From Polaribacter sp. (GTDB taxonomy: Bacteria; Bacteroidota; Bacteroidia; Flavobacteriales; Flavobacteriaceae): a DNA stretch of 64,000 bases. The stretch spans positions 10,236 to 74,235 of the forward strand of contig CBFIGS010000008.1 of assembly GCA_965662295.1 (NCBI GenBank). The letters are read 5' to 3'. Position numbers and translations under genes: made by a program. The notes below the pieces were generated by a model. The model worked only from the letters and a program-made list of their open reading frames with translations, was not told the DNA's origin and searched no databases. Shown one piece after another: positions 20,422 through 58,994 of the stretch (positions are counted from its first letter, which is position 1; each line of letters opens with the position of its first letter).

Positions 20422-20454
20422 AAAAAAACCCAAAACAAAGGTTTTGGGTTTTTT
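20422..20454 (-). terminator. Intrinsic terminator of the yceI-CDGSH unit, repeat copy B
   Basis: AAAAAACCCAAAAC-aaag-GTTTTGGGTTTTTT perfect 14-bp stem. Confidence 0.85.
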
Positions 20455-21350: not shown

Positions 21351-21803
21351 CTATTCTTTTATTTTGGAATCAATGATAATAGTAACGGGGCCATCATTCA
21401 ACAACTCCACTTTCATCTCTGCACCAAATACTCCAGTAGCCACTTTTTTGCCAAGTACTTTTTCTAGAGAGGCTACAAATTCTTGATACAAAGGAATTGC
21501 TACGAGTGGTTTTGCAGCCTTAATATAACTGGGTCTGCTTCCTTTTTTTGTGGAGGCATGTAGGGTAAATTGACTCACCACTAATGCTGCTGCATTGAGA
21601 TCCATTAAAGATAAATTCATCACGTCATTTTCATCATTAAAAATCCGAAGATTTGAAACTTTTTTTACCAACCAATGAATATCCTCTTCTGTATCATCGT
21701 GCTCAATCCCTAAAAGAATCAGCAATCCTGCTGATATATTTGCAACTTTATCTCCATGAACCGTTACACTTGCTTTTGATACTCTTTGAACAACAATTCT
21801 CAT
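21351..21803 (-). CDS. dtd: D-aminoacyl-tRNA deacylase
   Basis: MRIVVQRV, SQFTL, RPSY, GVFGAEM, NDGPVT. Confidence 0.97.
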   Translation of the reverse strand: MRIVVQRVSKASVTVHGDKVANISAGLLILLGIEHDDTEEDIHWLVKKVSNLRIFNDENDVMNLSLMDLNAAALVVSQFTLHASTKKGSRPSYIKAAKPLVAIPLYQEFVASLEKVLGKKVATGVFGAEMKVELLNDGPVTIIIDSKIKE

Positions 21804-21809
21804 AGGCTA

Positions 21810-22775
21810 TTAAGTATCTTGATCTTCGTTCCAAATATCTGTTCTAAAATGCGCTGTTTCATCTTCTCCCTCTAAAATTTGAAGATAACTTTTATAGCGA
21901 GACCAAGAAATCCGTTCTTCTTCTAGAGCGGCCTTAATGGCACAATTCGGTTCTTTTGTATGGATACAGTTATTAAATTTACAATCTTGTTTTAAGGCAA
22001 AAAACTCAGGGAAATAGTCTCCTAATTCATACTTATCGATGTCTACAACTCCAAAACCTTTGATTCCTGGGGTATCAATAATTCGTGCATTAAAATTTAA
22101 ATCGAACATTTCCGCAAATGTTGTCGTATGTTTTCCTTGTTGATGTTGGTCTGAAATTTCTTTGGTTTTTAAATCTAGGGTAGCATCAATTGCATTTACA
22201 AGGGTTGTTTTTCCAACTCCTGAGTGACCCACAAACATCGATGTCTTATCTTTCATTATTTCTTTAATGATAGAGACGTTTGTGTGTTGGGTAGCAGAAA
22301 CCTCTATGCATCTATATCCTATTGCTTCATAAATATCCTTGAGGTATAATACCTCTGCCCGAGCCTCAATAGCATAAGAATCTATTTTATTAAAAACCAA
22401 GACGGTGTCAATCCTGTAGGCTCTTGCAGCCACTAAAAAACGATCTATAAATGTTGAAAATGTTGGCGGATTATTAATGGTTATAAGTAAAAAAACTTGA
22501 TCAATATTTGCCGCAATAATATGGGTTTGTTTCGAAAGGTTTACAGATTTTCTAACAATGAAATTCTCTCGATCTAAGATTTTTTTAATTACACCTGTTT
22601 CTTCATCTCCTTTTTTTTCTAAGTCGAAAAGAACTCGATCTCCAACTGCTACAGGATTGGTACTCTTAATTCCTTTGATTCGGAATTTTCCTTTGATTCT
22701 ACATTGGTGAAATTCACCATCTTCAGATTTTACCTGATACCAACTTCCAGTAGATTTATATACGGTTCCTGTCAT
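21810..22775 (-). CDS. rsgA: Ribosome small subunit-dependent GTPase A
   Basis: NKID, GHSGVGKTT, GKHTTT, DTPG, zinc finger CKFNNCIHTKEPNCA. Confidence 0.97.
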   Translation of the reverse strand: MTGTVYKSTGSWYQVKSEDGEFHQCRIKGKFRIKGIKSTNPVAVGDRVLFDLEKKGDEETGVIKKILDRENFIVRKSVNLSKQTHIIAANIDQVFLLITINNPPTFSTFIDRFLVAARAYRIDTVLVFNKIDSYAIEARAEVLYLKDIYEAIGYRCIEVSATQHTNVSIIKEIMKDKTSMFVGHSGVGKTTLVNAIDATLDLKTKEISDQHQQGKHTTTFAEMFDLNFNARIIDTPGIKGFGVVDIDKYELGDYFPEFFALKQDCKFNNCIHTKEPNCAIKAALEEERISWSRYKSYLQILEGEDETAHFRTDIWNEDQDT

Positions 22776-22809: not shown

Positions 22810-22846
22810 AAAAAAATTCTTCAGATTTATAAACCTGAAGAATTTT
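22810..22846 (-). terminator. Intrinsic terminator of the aromatic amino-acid operon
   Basis: AAAATTCTTCAG-N10-CTGAAGAATTTT with a T-run on the minus strand. Confidence 0.8.
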
Positions 22847-22901: not shown

Positions 22902-23984
22902 CTATCCGTTAATTATCTTTTCTTGATGATTGATTGATTCTTGGTGAATTGCTTTGAACATTTTTAAAACAAATTCTTCGCTCAAACCTTTGCTTTCCCC
23001 CTCTAAAATCATATTTCCAAGTATCTCATTCCAACGTTTCGATTGTAAAACAGCAACGTTTTTATCTTTCTTTAAAGCTCCAATTTGATCGGCAACTTTC
23101 ATACGTTTTCCCAAAGTCTCTAACAATTGTGTATCTGCCACATTAATTTGCGCTCTTAAATTGTCTAAAGATTTTGTGTAATCTGCTTCTGTATTGGTTT
23201 CTTTTCTGATTTTTAAATCTTCCATAATTTGCTTAAGCTTCGTTGGAGTCACTTGTTGAGCGGCATCAGACCAAGCATTTTCAGGATCGAAATGAGTTTC
23301 GATCATTAAACCATCAAAATTTAAATCCAATGCAGTTTGAGAAACATCTTGAATCATTTCTCTATTTCCTGTAATATGAGAAGGATCGTTAATTAATGGT
23401 AAATCTGGAAATTTATTTTGGAACTCAATCGCTAATTGCCATTCTGGGGTATTTCTATAATTTGTTTTTTCATAGGTAGAGAACCCTCTGTGAATTGCTC
23501 CTAAATTTTTAATCCCTGCCGTATACAATCTTTCGATACCACCTAACCATAAAGCCAAATCTGGATTTACTGGATTTTTAACCAACACAATTTTGTCTGA
23601 CCCTTGCAAAGCATCTGCAATTTCTTGCATGATGAATGGCGATACTGTAGAACGTGCCCCAATCCATAATAAATCGACATCATTTTCGATGGCCAATTTA
23701 ACATGGGCCGCATTGGCAACTTCTGTACAGGTTTTCATACCTGTTTCTTCTTTTACTTTCTTTAACCATCTTAAACCAATTTCTCCAACACCTTCAAACA
23801 TTCCTGGTCTTGTTCTTGGCTTCCAAATTCCCGCTCTAAAATAATTTACATCAGAATCTTTTAATTCGTGTGCAATTTTTAAAACCTGTTCTTCGGTTTC
23901 TGCACTACAAGGCCCTGCTATTACTAGTGGATGCGCTAAATTCATATCATCCAACCATGTTCTTAATTCTTTTGTATTTTTCAT
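22902..23984 (-). CDS. Bifunctional DAHP synthase / chorismate mutase type II
   Basis: IAGPCSAE, WKPRTRP, WIGAR, KNP, HRGF, DPSH, GLMIETH; C-terminal LRAQIN...RMK CM2 domain. Confidence 0.93.
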   Translation of the reverse strand: MKNTKELRTWLDDMNLAHPLVIAGPCSAETEEQVLKIAHELKDSDVNYFRAGIWKPRTRPGMFEGVGEIGLRWLKKVKEETGMKTCTEVANAAHVKLAIENDVDLLWIGARSTVSPFIMQEIADALQGSDKIVLVKNPVNPDLALWLGGIERLYTAGIKNLGAIHRGFSTYEKTNYRNTPEWQLAIEFQNKFPDLPLINDPSHITGNREMIQDVSQTALDLNFDGLMIETHFDPENAWSDAAQQVTPTKLKQIMEDLKIRKETNTEADYTKSLDNLRAQINVADTQLLETLGKRMKVADQIGALKKDKNVAVLQSKRWNEILGNMILEGESKGLSEEFVLKMFKAIHQESINHQEKIING

Positions 23985-24004: not shown

Positions 24005-24856
24005 TTATTTTATGCCGTTTAAAATTTGCTTTATATAATTTGTATTCTCCATTTCGTTAAAAATTTCAGAGAAATTATCTTGTTGCATCAACGCTTTAAA
24101 ATGTTGTAAATTATTGATGTATTCTTCTAATGTTTCTATAACATTCTCTTTATTCTGTTTAAAAATTGGTGTCCACATGGCTGGCGAACTCTTTGCCAAA
24201 CGAACGGTGGATGCAAAACCAGAACCTGCCATATCAAAAATATCGCGTTCATTTTTTTCTTTATTGATCACTGTTTTACCTAACATAAACGCACTAATGT
24301 GAGATAGATGCGAAACATAAGCAATATGTTTGTCATGAGAGACAGCATCCATATAACGAATACGCATTCCAATGTCTGTAAAAAGCTGTAAAGCTTTTTC
24401 TTGCAACTTAAAAGTGGTCTTTTCTACTTCACAAATAATATTTGTTTTCCCAACGTATAAGCCAGAAATTGCTGCTGCAGGTCCAGATTTTTCTGTTCCT
24501 GCAATTGGATGACATGCTAAAAAATTTCTTCTTTTTGGATGATGTTCAACCGCCTTACAAATTGCTTCTTTTGTGGATCCTGCATCAACAACCAAGGTCT
24601 GATCTGAAATCTTATCCAAAATTGTTGGTAATAATTGAACCGTTGCATCTACCGGAATAGAAACAATGACTACGTCTGCATTTACCAAATCGTCTAAAGT
24701 GGCTTTTTTATCGATGAGATTTAATTCCAACGCTTTGTCTAGGGTCTCCTTTTTTCTACTAATTCCATGTATAACAACTGCTGGATACTTATTTTTAATA
24801 TCAATAGCAAAGCTACCTCCAATTAAACCAATACCAATCATGTAGATATTTTTCAT
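24005..24856 (-). CDS. tyrA: Prephenate dehydrogenase
   Basis: GIGLIGGS Rossmann motif, DAGSTK, HPIAGTE, HDKHIAYVSHLSH, GSGFASTVRLA. Confidence 0.93.
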   Translation of the reverse strand: MKNIYMIGIGLIGGSFAIDIKNKYPAVVIHGISRKKETLDKALELNLIDKKATLDDLVNADVVIVSIPVDATVQLLPTILDKISDQTLVVDAGSTKEAICKAVEHHPKRRNFLACHPIAGTEKSGPAAAISGLYVGKTNIICEVEKTTFKLQEKALQLFTDIGMRIRYMDAVSHDKHIAYVSHLSHISAFMLGKTVINKEKNERDIFDMAGSGFASTVRLAKSSPAMWTPIFKQNKENVIETLEEYINNLQHFKALMQQDNFSEIFNEMENTNYIKQILNGIK

Positions 24857-25995
24857 ATTCTAGATATTGCTTTTTTAATGATTGTTGAACTTACACATAG
24901 TGAAAAACGAATGTACCCTTCTCCTTGACTACCAAAAACAGTTCCAGGAGTTATAAATATGTCTTTCCCATATAAAATAGTATCCGTAACTTCTTCTGAT
25001 TTTTTACCCGCTGGAATTTTAGCCCAAACAAATAATCCTGTTGAATTTCTGTCATATACACAGTCTAATTTATCTGCCAATTGCCAGATTAAATTTCTGC
25101 GTTCTGTATATATTTTATTTTGTTCTAAAAACCAAGAATCAGATAAACTTAGCGCTTCAATAGCTCCTTTTTGAATTCCGTAAAACATGCCAGAATCCAT
25201 ATTCGATTTTACTTTTAAAATCTCATTAATATATTTTTGATTTCCTAAAACCATTCCAACACGCCAACCAGCCATGTTAAAAGTTTTACTTAAAGAATTT
25301 AATTCTAAAGCAATCTCTTTTGCTCCATCAACTTGTAAAATACTCTTGGGAGTATCGTTTAAAATAAAACTATATGGATTGTCATTGATGATTAAAATAT
25401 CATGCTTCTTTCCAAATGCGACTAACTTCTCAAAGGTTTCTGTAAGTGCATTTGTTCCTGTTGGCATGTGTGGATAATTTACCCACATAATTTTCACCTC
25501 AGACAAATTTTGACTTTCCAATTCTTTAAAATCTGGCTGCCAGTTATTTGCAGCACTGAGGTTATAAAAAAGAGGCTCGGCTCCTACTAATTTTGTTACT
25601 GATGTGTAGGTTGGATATCCTGGATTTGGAATCAACACTTTATCGCCTTCGTTTAAAAAAGCCATAGAAATATGCATAATTCCTTCTTTACTCCCCATTA
25701 ATGGCAGCACTTCATTTTCTGGATCTGAAACAACAGATAACTTGTTCTTATAAAAATTAGAAATCGCATTTCTTAATTCGGGCAACCCTTGATAGGATTG
25801 ATATTTATGAGCAGAAGCATCATGTAAACTATTCTGAATCGCCTCTAAAACTTTTGCAGGTGGTTGCAAATCGGGAGATCCAATTCCCATATTGATAATG
25901 GGTTTCCCTGCTGCCATTAGCCCTCTTACTTCTCTTAATTTTTTTGAAAAATAGTATTCTTGAACCGTATCTAATCTTTTGGCTGCCTTCATCAT
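24853..25995 (-). CDS. Class I/II PLP aminotransferase (probable aromatic/prephenate aminotransferase)
   Basis: GIGSPD, PNPGYPTY, NYPHMPTG, DNPY, SLSKTFNMAGWRVG; 4-nt overlaps with pheA and tyrA. Confidence 0.85.
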   Translation of the reverse strand: MMKAAKRLDTVQEYYFSKKLREVRGLMAAGKPIINMGIGSPDLQPPAKVLEAIQNSLHDASAHKYQSYQGLPELRNAISNFYKNKLSVVSDPENEVLPLMGSKEGIMHISMAFLNEGDKVLIPNPGYPTYTSVTKLVGAEPLFYNLSAANNWQPDFKELESQNLSEVKIMWVNYPHMPTGTNALTETFEKLVAFGKKHDILIINDNPYSFILNDTPKSILQVDGAKEIALELNSLSKTFNMAGWRVGMVLGNQKYINEILKVKSNMDSGMFYGIQKGAIEALSLSDSWFLEQNKIYTERRNLIWQLADKLDCVYDRNSTGLFVWAKIPAGKKSEEVTDTILYGKDIFITPGTVFGSQGEGYIRFSLCVSSTIIKKAISRI

Positions 25996-26819
25996 TTCCT
26001 ACCGTTTTTATAAGTTCCTAAAACCTTAAACTCCTCTGCCATGATTTCAATAATTGTTACTGCTTTTTTATAATTTTTGAAGTCATCAAAAGTAATGTCT
26101 ACAAAAAATGAATATTTCCAAGGAGTTTCGATCACTGGAATTGATTGTATTTTTGTCAAGTTCATTTTGCAATCACTTAACACATTAAGAATTGCCGCCA
26201 GGCTGCCTCTTTTATGATTTAATTCAAATTTTAAAGAGGCTTTATTTATCTCATCTATTTCATTGTTTGACTCTTGTGTCTGAACAATTACAAACCTAGT
26301 CGCATTGTCTTTAATGGTTTGTATTTCATCTTCAATGACCTCCAAATTAAAAATTTCTGCAGCAATTTTTGGAGCAATTGCTCCGATTCCTACTAAATTT
26401 TCTTTAGAAATTCTTTTGGCTACCTCGGCAGTATCCACATCCTCCACTAATTTGATATGTGGATATTTTTTAAAGAATTCTTTGCATTGTAACAATGCCA
26501 TAGGATGTGACCAAATCTCCTTAATATCTTCAATTTTTTGACCTTTTAACCCCATTAAATGATGATGAATGTGTAAGTATTCTTCTCCCGTTATGTGTAA
26601 ATTATACTTATCGATTAAAGCATAATTGGGAATGATAGATCCTGCAATTGTATTCTCTAACGCCATCACCCCAAGATCTGCAGAACCATCTAATAAACTA
26701 TCTACCAAGACATCAAAAGACATACACTCTTTCAACTGTATTTCTGAACCATAAAAGTCGCGAGCAACTTTATGATGATTTGAGCCTTCTGCTCCTTGTA
26801 TGGCAATCGTTTTGTTCAT
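25992..26819 (-). CDS. pheA: Prephenate dehydratase
   Basis: IAIQG, ENTIAGS, SHPMALLQC, DTA, NATRF, ACT domain NLTKIQS. Confidence 0.94.
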   Translation of the reverse strand: MNKTIAIQGAEGSNHHKVARDFYGSEIQLKECMSFDVLVDSLLDGSADLGVMALENTIAGSIIPNYALIDKYNLHITGEEYLHIHHHLMGLKGQKIEDIKEIWSHPMALLQCKEFFKKYPHIKLVEDVDTAEVAKRISKENLVGIGAIAPKIAAEIFNLEVIEDEIQTIKDNATRFVIVQTQESNNEIDEINKASLKFELNHKRGSLAAILNVLSDCKMNLTKIQSIPVIETPWKYSFFVDITFDDFKNYKKAVTIIEIMAEEFKVLGTYKNGRK

Positions 26820-26837: not shown

Positions 26838-26870
26838 AAAAAAAAAGTCTCGAAATTAATTCGAGACTTT
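26838..26870 (-). terminator. Attenuator terminator upstream of pheA
   Basis: AAAGTCTCGAA-N5-TTCGAGACTTT 11-bp stem followed by a T-run on the minus strand. Confidence 0.88.
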
Positions 26871-26887
26871 ATATTTTTGAATGTTTC

Positions 26888-26968
26888 TTAACAACATACT
26901 ACAAAGTCTCTTCTTTTATTATAAAAATAAAAGTAAAAATAGAAACGTGTAAAGTTGATATTCAACAT
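26888..26968 (-). CDS. Phe/Tyr-rich leader peptide (26 aa)
   Basis: Manual translation MLNINFTRFYFYFYFYNKRRDFVVCC*; eight consecutive alternating Phe/Tyr codons. Confidence 0.88.
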   Translation of the reverse strand: MLNINFTRFYFYFYFYNKRRDFVVCC

Positions 26969-27129
26969 CTTAATTCTCTTGTTTTGAAGAGCAAATCTAA
27001 AGATTATATTGAAACAAACAAATTAAATTTCCTTTTTTGTAAAAGAATTGACATATTGATAAATATCGCAGAAAATGCAAGGCTGGTTTTATGAAATTCT
27101 TTGATGAAAAAGGGATTAGAAATACATTT

Positions 27130-57650: not shown

Positions 57651-58994
57651 TTATATGAATTTATCGTAAAAATCCTTATTAAAAATAACCGATTTATATC
57701 TAGCATCAAAAGAAGATTTGACAATAATTAAAATATCATGATTAGAACCCAATAGCCATTTAATCTGGGTGTTAATTTTATCAATGTACTGATTTCGTAT
57801 GCGTTCGTTTTGAATTTTGCTTAAATGATTTTTACTAACAAGAGCATATATTTCTGTAAATTCCATTTCTCTTGTAATCGCTCTTTTAAGAATAGTAAGA
57901 GCCATAACATCCAATTCTATAAACTTAGATCTATACTTCAACCCATTCTCTAATATAACCAACGAGTTCCTTGATTTTATATATCTATAAATTCCAAAAA
58001 AAGCGATGCATAAAAAAACAAGTCCAAAACTAATTAATAAATAAATGACCGTCATTTCTGTATCATATAAAGCTGTAATTTGTACAATCTTATTTGTAAG
58101 CTCTTTAAAAGCTACTTTTTTCAACACACTACTCTTATTAATATAATAAAGTTGATCATTGAAAATGACAGGATCGATATCATTATTAAATAAATGTAAA
58201 ATAGGATTAATTTTATATTCAGTGAGTGTATTTTGTTCAATATTCACCTTAAATAAGGTGGCTTTACCATCCAAAATATAACTATGCTTACCATCAGTAA
58301 AACTTCTAAAATCGCGTCCTGAAAAATTAGCTTTTAATTTCCCTAAAAGATTCCAATTTTTACTTTGAAAATTAAAAGACCAAACTTCATTATTTGAAAC
58401 CTCATTTCTTGTTCCGAGATGAGTCACATAAAATCCCCCAAAAAAATAAAAAAAATTCTCTTTATTAATGGCAAAATGATTACTAACTGTAGTAGCTTTC
58501 TTTGAAGTTAGAGATATAGGATATATCTCCCATTCCTTTGTACTTTTATCTAAATAAGTAAAAAAATTAGACTGTGTCCAATACCCATAACCACCATGTC
58601 TCATGAGGGTATCATTTTTTATGAATATAGAACTTCCTATCAAGAAATTTTTAATATCAGAATTATCAACTCTTAGGAGACTGTCTTGTTCTGTTAATTG
58701 AAAAACTTCACCTCCTTTTTGATTTAGAAAAAGTAATCTATTTTGTTTGATAACTGGGAGAAGGGAAATCCAAGTATTTGGCTTTACGATTTTCTTTGTT
58801 TCAAGAATCTCTAAACTGTTTGCATCTAATCGTGTTAAAGATTCACTAGTAGCAAATAAAATCTGATTTGTTAGCGAGTCTACGATTAAACGTTCAGTGA
58901 TTTCAGGAATTGCCCTTTGTTGGCTAAAAGAGGTGAAAGGAATTAAAAATATAAAAATAAATAGGGAATATAACCCCTTCGAAAAATACATCAT
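57651..58994 (-). CDS. Hypothetical membrane-anchored protein (Kelch-like periplasmic part, TM, small cytoplasmic domain)
   Basis: Signal peptide; HGGYG, FFGG, VWSFNF Kelch-like elements; one TM near aa 315-340; basic C-terminal domain. Confidence 0.55.
   Translation of the reverse strand: MMYFSKGLYSLFIFIFLIPFTSFSQQRAIPEITERLIVDSLTNQILFATSESLTRLDANSLEILETKKIVKPNTWISLLPVIKQNRLLFLNQKGGEVFQLTEQDSLLRVDNSDIKNFLIGSSIFIKNDTLMRHGGYGYWTQSNFFTYLDKSTKEWEIYPISLTSKKATTVSNHFAINKENFFYFFGGFYVTHLGTRNEVSNNEVWSFNFQSKNWNLLGKLKANFSGRDFRSFTDGKHSYILDGKATLFKVNIEQNTLTEYKINPILHLFNNDIDPVIFNDQLYYINKSSVLKKVAFKELTNKIVQITALYDTEMTVIYLLISFGLVFLCIAFFGIYRYIKSRNSLVILENGLKYRSKFIELDVMALTILKRAITREMEFTEIYALVSKNHLSKIQNERIRNQYIDKINTQIKWLLGSNHDILIIVKSSFDARYKSVIFNKDFYDKFI

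What the first reader, a model, noticed from the sequence alone, without database searches (positions are those of the whole stretch)
26838..27022. Unannotated dual Phe/Tyr leader-peptide attenuator controlling pheA-aminotransferase-tyrA-DAHP synthase/CM
Seen: promoter (-33/-7), leader MLNINFTRFYFYFYFYNKRRDFVVCC* (26968-26888) with eight strictly alternating Phe/Tyr codons (26944-26921), an 11-bp terminator with U-tract, and an in-leader GAGACUUUGUA able to pair with the terminator's 5' arm region (UAUAAAGUCUC, one G-U) as antiterminator. A ribosome at the stop codon would mask the antiterminator; one stalled in the FY run would leave it free. Established: ribosome-mediated attenuation as in enteric pheL/trpL. 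Notable: one leader integrates two amino acids, has no Trp codons, and works without a Shine-Dalgarno sequence. It also implies the embedded aminotransferase serves Phe/Tyr synthesis.
Basis: partly seen in the sequence, partly recalled or inferred. Interest (0 to 1): 0.62.

Follow-up and report, generated by a model that had tools for sequence, protein, structure and literature searches.

The report
Phe/Tyr leader-peptide attenuator before pheA
A 26-codon mini-gene with eight alternating Phe and Tyr codons, followed by a switchable terminator hairpin, sits before the Phe/Tyr biosynthesis operon of this Polaribacter genome; it is a real, strongly conserved but textbook amino-acid-sensing switch, already reported for the same gene in Flavobacterium psychrophilum.

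Summary
These are a Bacteroidetes-type -33/-7 promoter, the leader ORF MLNINFTRFYFYFYFYNKRRDFVVCC*, an 11-bp terminator with a T9 tract, and an 11-bp antiterminator that competes for the terminator's 5' arm.

The element is not chance. The same F/Y-run leader plus terminator lies before pheA in 76 of 80 close relatives. A covariance model built from them hits 252 of 301 Flavobacteriaceae genomes sampled, and also Sphingobacteriaceae and other Bacteroidia families.

One terminator-arm position covaries with both its antiterminator partner and its terminator partner, which marks mutually exclusive helices. Phe and Tyr codons change mostly synonymously, which argues that the ORF is translated.

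The same genome also has a His leader before hisG and a Trp leader before trpE that passes the Rfam Bacteroid-trp threshold.

The interpretation, a ribosome-mediated attenuator sensing Phe and Tyr, is supported. It is not new: Guérin et al. [quoted passage not shown] I rate it a new member of a known kind, of low interest.

The parts
26992..27022 (-). Bacteroidetes-type promoter: -33 TTTG (27022-27019), 19-nt spacer, -7 TAGATTTG (26999-26992). The predicted transcription start is near 26985.
   Evidence: Pattern match. A -7 box lies 20-25 nt upstream of the leader ATG in 70 of 78 relatives, and the full -33/-7 motif is present in 63 of 78. The start site is inferred by analogy with the mapped F. 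psychrophilum start site.
26888..26968 (-). Leader ORF of 26 codons plus stop: MLNINFTRFYFYFYFYNKRRDFVVCC*
   Evidence: An in-frame ORF with an F/Y run is present in 76 of 80 close relatives, in 29 of 29 family-level loci and in other Bacteroidia families.
26921..26944 (-). Regulatory codon run: eight alternating Phe/Tyr codons (TTC TAT TTT TAC TTT TAT TTT TAT)
   Evidence: Per-position codon counts show mainly synonymous variation: TAT 53 / TAC 19 at run position 6, and TTT 60 / TTC 11 at position 3.
26941..26952 (-). Region 1 (UACAC-GUUUCU), the candidate partner of region 2 (anti-antiterminator). It overlaps the first Phe codon.
   Evidence: Part of the minimum-free-energy fold. The GUUUC/GAGAC core is about 90% paired in A1 and 82% in A2, with 5 sequences changed on both sides at one pair. 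The helix is weak, -4.8 kcal/mol alone, and is the least certain one.
26900..26910 (-). Region 2: the 5' arm of the antiterminator, GAGACUUUGUA, inside the leader ORF
   Evidence: Its 7-bp core is 92.5% paired across 48 diverse sequences, with an A-U to G-C change in 6 sequences.
26881..26897 (-). Small hairpin (AUGUU-N7-AACAU) in the antiterminator loop. It spans the leader stop codon.
   Evidence: Predicted within the antiterminator fold. Its conservation was not tested in depth.
26860..26873 (-). Region 3: UAUAAAGUCUCGAA, shared between the antiterminator (with region 2) and the terminator (with region 4)
   Evidence: Alignment column 170 covaries with both column 92 (region 2) and column 186 (region 4).
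26838..26854 (-). Region 4 (UUCGAGACUUU) plus the U-tract. With region 3 it forms the 11-bp intrinsic terminator (26870-26844, T9 ending at 26838).
   Evidence: The helix is 99.3% paired in 77 sequences and 98% in 48 diverse sequences, with 4 pairs changed on both sides.
25992..26819 (-). pheA: prephenate dehydratase with a C-terminal ACT domain, the first regulated gene
   Evidence: Pfam PDT 6e-53 plus ACT; NCBIfam prephenate dehydratase.
24853..25995 (-). Class I/II aminotransferase whose frame overlaps pheA and tyrA by 4 nt each. It is the probable aromatic or prephenate aminotransferase.
   Evidence: Pfam Aminotran_1_2 1e-57. Its best NCBIfam hits (LL-DAP aminotransferase) fall below their cut-offs. 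The function is inferred from operon context.
24005..24856 (-). tyrA: prephenate dehydrogenase
   Evidence: Pfam PDH_N and PDH_C. NCBIfam NF006307 scores 381.7 bits against a cut-off of 295.
22902..23984 (-). Bifunctional DAHP synthase / chorismate mutase (CM_2 at the C-terminus)
   Evidence: Pfam DAHP_synth_1 plus CM_2.
22813..22846 (-). Intrinsic terminator that ends the four-gene operon
   Evidence: A 15-bp stem followed by a T run, 56 nt after the stop codon of the DAHP synthase/CM gene.

Best explanation
This is a classical ribosome-mediated (leader-peptide) transcription attenuator. It controls the four-gene operon pheA - aminotransferase - tyrA - DAHP synthase/chorismate mutase of a marine Polaribacter (Flavobacteriaceae).

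Transcription starts at a -33/-7 promoter about 17 nt upstream of a 26-codon leader ORF.

- When charged tRNA-Phe and tRNA-Tyr are plentiful, the ribosome reads through the eight Phe/Tyr codons to the stop codon. There it covers region 2 (GAGACUUUGUA), so region 3 pairs with region 4. This forms the 11-bp terminator with its U9 tract, and transcription stops before pheA.
- When either amino acid is scarce, the ribosome stalls in the Phe/Tyr run. It covers region 1 and leaves region 2 free to pair with region 3, which forms the antiterminator. The terminator cannot form and the operon is transcribed.

What is shown here: the sequence elements, their mutually exclusive pairing, their covariation, their conservation, and the gene context. 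What is inferred: translation of the leader, the stalling, and the response to starvation. That inference has indirect experimental support from the orthologous element of Flavobacterium psychrophilum.
For: 1. Anatomy: all parts are present and correctly spaced. The antiterminator (-15.0 kcal/mol with its inner hairpin) and the terminator (-14.2) are similar in strength.
2. Geometry: when the mRNA is masked up to a ribosome stalled at run codons 1-6, the fold contains the antiterminator helix. Masking for run codons 7-8 or for the stop codon gives the terminator.
3. Conservation in close relatives: 76 of 80 pheA loci from Polaribacter, Tenacibaculum, Algibacter, Flavivirga and Flaviramulus carry the same leader.
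4. Conservation in the family: model R1 hits 252 of 301 Flavobacteriaceae genomes sampled. All 29 fetched hits lie next to pheA and carry an F/Y-run ORF.
5. Conservation beyond the family: hits occur in Sphingobacteriaceae (Mucilaginibacter) and other Bacteroidia families, again before pheA.
6. Covariation: the region-3 position is U in most sequences and C in six. In those six, both its region-2 partner (A to G) and its region-4 partner (A to G) change.
7. Translation signature: Phe and Tyr positions are held while TTT/TTC and TAT/TAC interchange. The peptide's C-terminus and stop position vary (NKS* versus ...RDFVxCC*) while the RNA stays constant.
8. The same genome has a His leader before hisG and a Trp leader before trpE. 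The Trp leader scores 55 bits against the Rfam Bacteroid-trp threshold of 49.
9. [quoted passage not shown] It has a mapped start site, a short 5' transcript, read-through in specific conditions and highest operon expression in minimal nutrient media (PMC9723704). Its sequence folds into the same antiterminator/terminator alternative.
Against: - There is no direct evidence in this organism that the leader is translated or that read-through responds to Phe or Tyr.
- The 1:2 helix is weak (-4.8 kcal/mol) and is not the best fold of the first 83 nt. The behaviour of an untranslated leader is therefore uncertain.
- Much of the helix support is invariance rather than covariation.
- The equilibrium fold of the full leader with a ribosome stalled at run codons 1-6 keeps a shortened 6-bp region-3/region-4 hairpin beside the antiterminator helix. 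The argument therefore rests on co-transcriptional kinetics.
- Transcription-translation coupling has not been demonstrated in Bacteroidota, to my knowledge.
Confidence: 0.88

Rival explanations
1. The attenuator senses Phe only. The Tyr codons are incidental, kept by RNA-structure or composition constraints in a U-rich leader, and Tyr starvation does not relieve termination.
For: The published F. psychrophilum element was labelled 'phenylalanine biosynthesis'. Phe codons outnumber Tyr codons in relatives, with means of 5.7 and 3.3. Run positions 2 and 8 toggle between F and Y. UAU and UUU differ by a single base.
Against: Tyr is held at run positions 4 and 6 in 68 of 72 and 72 of 72 leaders, with TAT/TAC interchange. 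Every leader has at least 2 Tyr codons. Distant families keep mixed F/Y runs on quite different nucleotide sequences. The operon encodes tyrA as well as pheA.
Confidence: 0.08
2. The terminator/antiterminator switch is real but is set by a trans-acting factor or a ligand (an RNA-binding protein, a small RNA or a riboswitch) rather than by ribosome position. The ORF is not the sensor.
For: Translation of the leader is not shown here. Bacteroidota lack Shine-Dalgarno-guided initiation (my own knowledge), so initiation on a 17-nt 5' UTR is assumed rather than demonstrated.
Against: The reading frame, the ATG and the F/Y run are kept across families while the nucleotides diverge. Substitutions in the run are mainly synonymous. 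No Rfam family reaches its threshold. There is no conserved structured aptamer-like domain beyond the three short helices. The his and trp leaders in the same genome carry runs of their own amino acid's codons.
Confidence: 0.03
3. The hairpin is just the intrinsic terminator of the upstream class V aminotransferase gene (28653-27130), and the short ORF is a chance reading frame in U-rich spacer DNA.
For: No other terminator-like site lies between that gene's stop codon (27130) and the hairpin. It may therefore also stop read-through from upstream.
Against: A promoter lies between the upstream gene and the leader. The element travels with pheA in all fetched loci across families. An 8-codon F/Y run is nearly unique in the genome. 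The antiterminator complement is rare in shuffles, 6 of 2000, and it covaries.
Confidence: 0.01

Closest known systems
Flavobacterium psychrophilum pheA-aspC3 leader-peptide attenuation element (5' region THC0290_N_0195; Guérin et al. 2021, ISME Commun, PMC9723704)
   Same: Same family of bacteria and the same position before pheA and the aminotransferase. Both have a short ORF rich in tandem Phe/Tyr codons and a -33/-7 promoter roughly 20 nt upstream of the ATG. Both have a region 2/region 3 antiterminator competing with a region 3/region 4 terminator plus U-tract. The authors noted conservation of the pheA 5' element in other Flavobacteriaceae genera and the absence of any Rfam family.
   Different: The nucleotide sequence has diverged: GGGAUUGU/ACAAUCCC there against GAGACUUU/AAAGUCUC here. 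The F. psychrophilum leader has a shorter, interrupted run (FY...FYFYW) with a Trp codon. In F. psychrophilum the DAHP synthase gene has its own mapped start site, and no tyrA was listed between the genes in the excerpts read. Here four genes appear to form one unit.
Escherichia coli pheL-pheA attenuator (Rfam Phe_leader RF01859)
   Same: It works the same way. A leader peptide rich in the codons of the end-product amino acid precedes pheA, with a four-region alternative structure and an intrinsic terminator. (My own knowledge of the classical system.)
   Different: This element is not a sequence or structure member: it scores 22.5 bits against a gathering score of 55. E. coli pheL has Phe codons only and an SD-led ORF. 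E. coli tyrA is controlled separately by TyrR (my own knowledge). Here one leader carries both Phe and Tyr codons and the operon contains both branch enzymes.
Bacteroid-trp leader (Rfam RF01692; Weinberg et al. 2010, PMC2864571)
   Same: It is a predicted leader-peptide attenuator in the same phylum with the same SD-less context. It is present in this very genome before trpE (55 bits against a threshold of 49; leader MKNNTIKTWWWSSLI).
   Different: It carries Trp codons and regulates the trp operon. Its sequence is unrelated.
Multi-amino-acid leaders thrL (Thr and Ile) and ilvL (Ile, Leu, Val) of enteric bacteria
   Same: One leader integrates more than one amino acid through mixed codon runs, giving OR logic. 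(My own knowledge.)
   Different: They differ in amino acids, pathway, phylum and sequence.

Membership tests
Classical ribosome-mediated leader-peptide transcription attenuators (trpL/pheL/hisL type) | A short ORF in the 5' leader carries a run of codons for the pathway's end-product amino acid(s). | tested here: met
   Eight consecutive Phe/Tyr codons in a 26-codon ORF lie before pheA...tyrA. The feature is conserved in relatives.
Classical ribosome-mediated leader-peptide transcription attenuators (trpL/pheL/hisL type) | An intrinsic terminator lies between the leader ORF and the first structural gene. | tested here: met
   An 11-bp stem with a U9 tract at 26870-26838 lies 18 nt upstream of the pheA ATG. 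It is 98-99% paired in the alignments.
Classical ribosome-mediated leader-peptide transcription attenuators (trpL/pheL/hisL type) | A mutually exclusive antiterminator shares the 5' arm of the terminator. | tested here: met
   The 11-bp region 2/region 3 helix is documented. The same region-3 column covaries with both region 2 and region 4 in 6 sequences.
Classical ribosome-mediated leader-peptide transcription attenuators (trpL/pheL/hisL type) | The spacing is such that a ribosome at the regulatory codons frees region 2, and a ribosome at the stop codon masks it. | tested here: met
   Region 2 starts 10 nt after the run and ends 10 nt before the stop codon. Masked folds switch as expected. 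This is a geometric inference, not an experiment.
Classical ribosome-mediated leader-peptide transcription attenuators (trpL/pheL/hisL type) | A region 1/region 2 hairpin (anti-antiterminator or pause hairpin) is present. | tested here: inconclusive
   The GUUUCU/AGAGAC core is 82-90% paired, with 5 sequences changed on both sides at one pair. The helix is only -4.8 kcal/mol and is not the best fold of the nascent 83 nt.
Classical ribosome-mediated leader-peptide transcription attenuators (trpL/pheL/hisL type) | The leader is translated, and read-through rises on starvation for the cognate amino acid. | not testable with these tools
Indirect support comes from the synonymous codon pattern. The F. 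psychrophilum orthologue shows conditional read-through and highest operon expression in minimal nutrient media.
Rfam Phe_leader (RF01859, gamma-proteobacterial pheL) | The sequence matches the family covariance model at or above its gathering score. | tested here: not met
   The score is 22.5 bits against a gathering score of 55, E = 0.86, and essentially only the terminator aligns. The element is therefore an analogue, not a member.
Flavobacteriaceae pheA 5' leader element (Guérin et al. 2021) | The element lies directly upstream of pheA and the aminotransferase, and consists of an aromatic-rich short ORF plus a terminator that is conserved across genera of the family. | tested here: met
   Context. 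Family-wide presence: 252 of 301 genomes. The published description and sequence were read, and the published sequence gives the same alternative folds.
Flavobacteriaceae pheA 5' leader element (Guérin et al. 2021) | There is detectable sequence homology to the published F. psychrophilum element. | tested here: inconclusive
   Model R1 found no hit in nine genomes of one sampled genus of the family that does have pheA. Orthology is inferred from position and architecture.

The most novel reading that the evidence does not exclude
The element may be more than a simple Phe sensor. The strictly alternating F-Y-F-Y arrangement could be a tuned OR-gate that gives equal weight to two branch end-products.

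Most relatives add a single conserved Trp codon just before or inside the run (50 of 78 leaders), which would make a three-aromatic sensor. That would fit an operon containing the common-pathway DAHP synthase. This Polaribacter lineage has lost the Trp input (NF in place of TW), so it would be a natural re-wiring of the attenuator's input set.

A further possibility is that the aromatic nascent chain itself contributes to stalling.
Probability: 0.12. Interest if true: 0.4.

Novelty: new member of a known kind. Interest (0 to 1): 0.2.

Why it matters
The finding adds a well-supported annotation: an unannotated leader ORF, an attenuator and the boundaries of a four-gene operon in a marine Polaribacter.

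It also shows that the pheA leader published for one Flavobacterium species is a family-wide RNA element. It was found in 252 of 301 Flavobacteriaceae genomes sampled and is recognisable in Sphingobacteriaceae, yet it still has no Rfam family. Alignments A1 and A2 and model R1 could seed one.

The element supports assigning the embedded aminotransferase to Phe/Tyr synthesis rather than to diaminopimelate synthesis.

It is also a convenient natural test case for whether transcription and translation are coupled in Bacteroidota, which initiate translation without Shine-Dalgarno pairing.

It does not reveal a new regulatory principle.

Tried and rejected
- **Rfam scan at permissive E-values.** It gave only sub-threshold hits (rimP, STnc230, Phe_leader), all driven by the terminator hairpin. 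I rejected them as family membership.
- **Other R1 hits in the same genome (E from 2e-4 to 0.7).** These are weak, generic matches. The exact hairpin motif AGTCTCG...CGAGACT occurs only once in the genome, so it is not a repeated or mobile terminator.
- **A second F/Y run of 8 codons (genome contig C2, position 259).** It has no ATG-started ORF and I rejected it as chance.
- **A generic genome scan for amino-acid-run ORFs before terminators.** It was very noisy. Only the His and Trp leaders stood up on inspection. The Ile- and Leu-rich candidates lay inside coding or non-leader contexts and were dropped.
- **A phylum-level sample through Pfam PDT.** Most pheA loci outside class Bacteroidia show no F/Y leader, with one exception in one family. 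The element is therefore largely confined to Bacteroidia and is not phylum-wide.
- **Literature.** Vitreschak et al. 2004 and Lopatovskaya et al. 2010 may list Bacteroidetes attenuators, but neither is held. Naville and Gautheret 2010 does not mention Bacteroidetes. Ryan et al. 2020 mentions leader-like short ORFs in B. thetaiotaomicron only in general terms.
- **Sigma-70 promoter scan.** It is uninformative for this phylum, finding 30 sites against 35 expected.

Full report
**Observation.**

- A match to the Bacteroidetes promoter consensus, TTTG-N19-TAGATTTG, lies at 27022-26992.
- A short ORF runs from ATG 26968 to TAA 26890-26888 and encodes MLNINFTRFYFYFYFYNKRRDFVVCC.
- Eight strictly alternating Phe/Tyr codons lie at 26944-26921.
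- A hairpin AAAGUCUCGAA-UUAAU-UUCGAGACUUU at 26870-26844 runs into nine U's ending at 26838.
- GAGACUUUGUA (26910-26900), inside the ORF, is complementary to UAUAAAGUCUC (26873-26863) with one G-U. That second segment contains most of the terminator's 5' arm.

Energies are -14.2 kcal/mol for the terminator. The antiterminator is -11.8 kcal/mol alone and -15.0 with the small hairpin in its loop. The whole leader folds better than all 200 shuffles, with z = -3.9. An 11-bp complement to the terminator arm arises in only 6 of 2000 shuffles of the leader. A run of 8 or more F/Y residues occurs only twice in the six-frame translation of the 2.1-Mb genome (GC 33%), and the other instance has no ATG-started ORF.

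**Context.**
Downstream on the same strand, with 4-nt overlaps between the first three genes, lie four genes:
- pheA (PDT plus ACT domains);
- a class I/II aminotransferase;
- tyrA (prephenate dehydrogenase; NCBIfam NF006307 above its cut-off);
- a bifunctional DAHP synthase/chorismate mutase.

A strong terminator at 22846-22813 closes the unit before rsgA. The operon therefore contains the entry enzyme of the shikimate pathway, the branch-point mutase and both Phe- and Tyr-specific branch enzymes. That is the gene content one would expect to be governed by Phe and Tyr.

**Organism and conservation.**
The closest PheA relatives are Polaribacter, then Tenacibaculum, Algibacter, Flavivirga and Flaviramulus. 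In 76 of the 80 fetched loci, an ATG-started short ORF with at least 5 of 8 F/Y residues lies about 140-150 nt before pheA and is followed by the same hairpin and U-tract. The exceptions are two loci cut by contig ends, L002 and L046, and two scored below 6 of 8 by the crude filter.

The -7 box lies 20-25 nt upstream of the ATG in 70 of 78 loci. I aligned 77 leaders (A1) and built covariance model R1. R1 finds the element in 252 of 301 Flavobacteriaceae genomes, with close to one genome sampled per genus. All 29 fetched family-level hits sit directly before a pheA homologue and contain an in-frame F/Y run. Examples are MSNNIWNSFYFYFYFSNKG, MKTSTNFTYFNWFYFFFNERNETLYV and MNASSYIWTFFYFYFYFFKGEKGTCIA.

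In a class-wide sample, R1 hits 34 of 401 genomes. These include a family identified by name as Sphingobacteriaceae (Mucilaginibacter) and several other families, again with F/Y leaders before pheA. Examples are MNNSRAYFYGFYFYFTSKSRD, MKLFNTYYFGYFYYFSKSRG and MTLTITYFNFYFFYFFSKSRLGM. In a phylum-level sample taken through Pfam PDT, most pheA loci outside class Bacteroidia have no such leader.

**RNA structure evidence.**
In A1 the terminator is 99.3% paired, the antiterminator 91.7%, and the GUUUCU/AGAGAC core of a region 1/region 2 helix about 90%. Most of that support is invariance.

The more diverse alignment A2 (48 sequences) is informative. Region 3 reads GUCUC in most sequences and GUCCC in six. 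In exactly those six, the region-2 partner changes from A to G (column pair 92/170: AU in 41, GC in 6). The region-4 partner changes too (column pair 170/186: UA in 31, UG in 11, CG in 6). One column covarying with two different partners is the signature of two mutually exclusive helices.

The region 1/region 2 helix also has a pair with changes on both sides (36/94: UA in 37, CG in 5). However, it is weak in this genome at -4.8 kcal/mol, and it is not the best fold of the first 83 nt. I regard it as the least certain element.

**Evidence that the ORF is read as codons.**
Within the run, F and Y identities are held while synonymous codons interchange. At run position 6 the counts are TAT 53 and TAC 19. 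At position 3 they are TTT 60 and TTC 11. At position 4, Tyr is present in 68 of 72 leaders.

By contrast, the C-terminal part of the peptide is not conserved as protein. Relatives either stop at a UGA that overlaps region 2 (...FNKS*) or read through region 2 to a stop about 9 codons later (...RDFVxCC*). The underlying RNA, GAGACUUUGUA, stays constant in both. Either stop position places a terminating ribosome over region 2.

**Mechanism.**
Region 2 begins 10 nt after the last F/Y codon and ends 10 nt before the stop codon. Region 3 begins 15 nt after the stop codon.

- Folding with the mRNA masked up to a ribosome whose A site is on run codons 1-6 gives a structure containing the antiterminator helix. 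A shortened 6-bp region-3/region-4 hairpin still forms beside it in that equilibrium fold.
- Masking for codons 7-8 or for the stop codon gives the full terminator.
- When only regions 1-3 have been transcribed, the best fold contains the antiterminator.

This is the classical trpL/pheL logic. The steps involving ribosome position, stalling and transcription-translation coupling are inferred, not shown.

**Support from the same genome and from the literature.**
The genome also carries a His leader (MTFIHLHHHFNNCNQAI plus terminator) before hisG and a Trp leader (MKNNTIKTWWWSSLI plus terminator) before trpE. The Trp leader passes the gathering score of Rfam Bacteroid-trp, 55 bits against 49.

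Guérin et al. 2021 (ISME Commun, PMC9723704) mapped start sites and transcripts in Flavobacterium psychrophilum. [quoted passage not shown] They report read-through under specific conditions and highest expression of the hisG, pheA and trpE operons in minimal nutrient media. They also note that the pheA 5' element is conserved in other genera of Flavobacteriaceae and has no Rfam hit. I folded their published sequence, and it shows the same alternative: GGGAUUGU/ACAAUCCC as antiterminator against an AUCCCG...CGGGAU terminator.

Earlier notes of this scan report the same kind of element in many other Bacteroidota genomes. I treat these as agreeing leads, not as evidence.

**Comparison and novelty.**
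The element works like E. coli pheL but is not a member of Rfam Phe_leader (22.5 bits against 55). It is an orthologue by position and architecture of the published F. psychrophilum element.

Leaders that sense several amino acids exist in thrL and ilvL, and translation without a Shine-Dalgarno sequence is a phylum-wide trait; both points are my own knowledge. "No Trp codons" is specific to this copy, since 50 of 78 relatives have one Trp codon near the run.

The aminotransferase scores below the cut-offs of every named NCBIfam family; for example, it scores 410 bits against the 507-bit cut-off for LL-DAP aminotransferase. Its frame also overlaps both neighbours by 4 nt. A role in Phe/Tyr synthesis is therefore a reasonable but untested inference.

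**Verdict.**
The element is a new member of a known kind and of low interest. What remains open is experimental: whether Tyr as well as Phe limitation relieves termination, and whether the single Trp codon in relatives matters.

**Limits.**
The older comparative-genomics papers on attenuators were not available.

Noticed in passing
own genome contig C5, + strand coordinates 58109-58224 (outside the window): A His leader peptide, MTFIHLHHHFNNCNQAI, is followed by the terminator AAACCCGUUUGAGCAAAUCAAACGGGUUUUUU and lies directly before a hisG-like ORF. It is a second leader-peptide attenuator in this genome.
   Followed up: partly
own genome contig C6:88219-88351 (outside the window): A Trp leader peptide, MKNNTIKTWWWSSLI, plus a terminator lies before trpE. 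It matches Rfam Bacteroid-trp (RF01692) at 55 bits, above the 49-bit threshold.
   Followed up: yes
window 26953-26955 (codon 6 of the leader) compared with loci L006, L009, L025, L089 and others: 50 of 78 relatives' leaders carry one Trp codon just before or inside the F/Y run (for example ..NTWTRFYFY.., ..NWFYFFF..). This genome has Phe (AAC TTT, 'NF') where many have 'TW'. This may reflect a third aromatic input that has been lost in this lineage.
   Followed up: partly
alignment A1; for example L011, L020, L024 against the window at 26888-26912: There are two classes of leader stop position. A short class ends ...FNKS* with a UGA that overlaps region 2. A long class reads through region 2 to ...RDFVxCC*. 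The RNA is conserved and the peptide tail is not.
   Followed up: partly
window 24853-25995 (-): The operon's aminotransferase scores best against LL-diaminopimelate aminotransferase models but below their cut-offs (410 bits against 507). Automatic annotation may misname it. Its context points to an aromatic or prephenate aminotransferase.
   Followed up: partly
window 21351-21803 (-) and 21810-22775 (-): A D-Tyr-tRNA(Tyr) deacylase gene (dtd) lies two genes downstream of the Phe/Tyr operon, after rsgA and beyond the operon terminator. The adjacency to Tyr metabolism may be coincidental.
   Followed up: no
L004 (record labelled Acidimicrobiia) and L078 (record labelled Arenicella sp.): Two metagenome-assembled contigs labelled as non-Bacteroidota carry Polaribacter-like pheA (76-86% identity) and the same leader. 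They are probably mis-binned. In L078 the leader lacks the terminator, so it may be an assembly chimera.
   Followed up: no
The genome search genus g174 (nine genomes, same family): A multi-species genus of the family has pheA but no hit to model R1. The published F. psychrophilum leader is likewise diverged in sequence. A single covariance model built from Polaribacter-like leaders under-counts the element.
   Followed up: partly
window 20423-20454: A perfect 14-bp palindromic hairpin is flanked by A-runs and T-runs on both strands. It looks like a bidirectional terminator between convergent or adjacent genes downstream of yceI.
   Followed up: no
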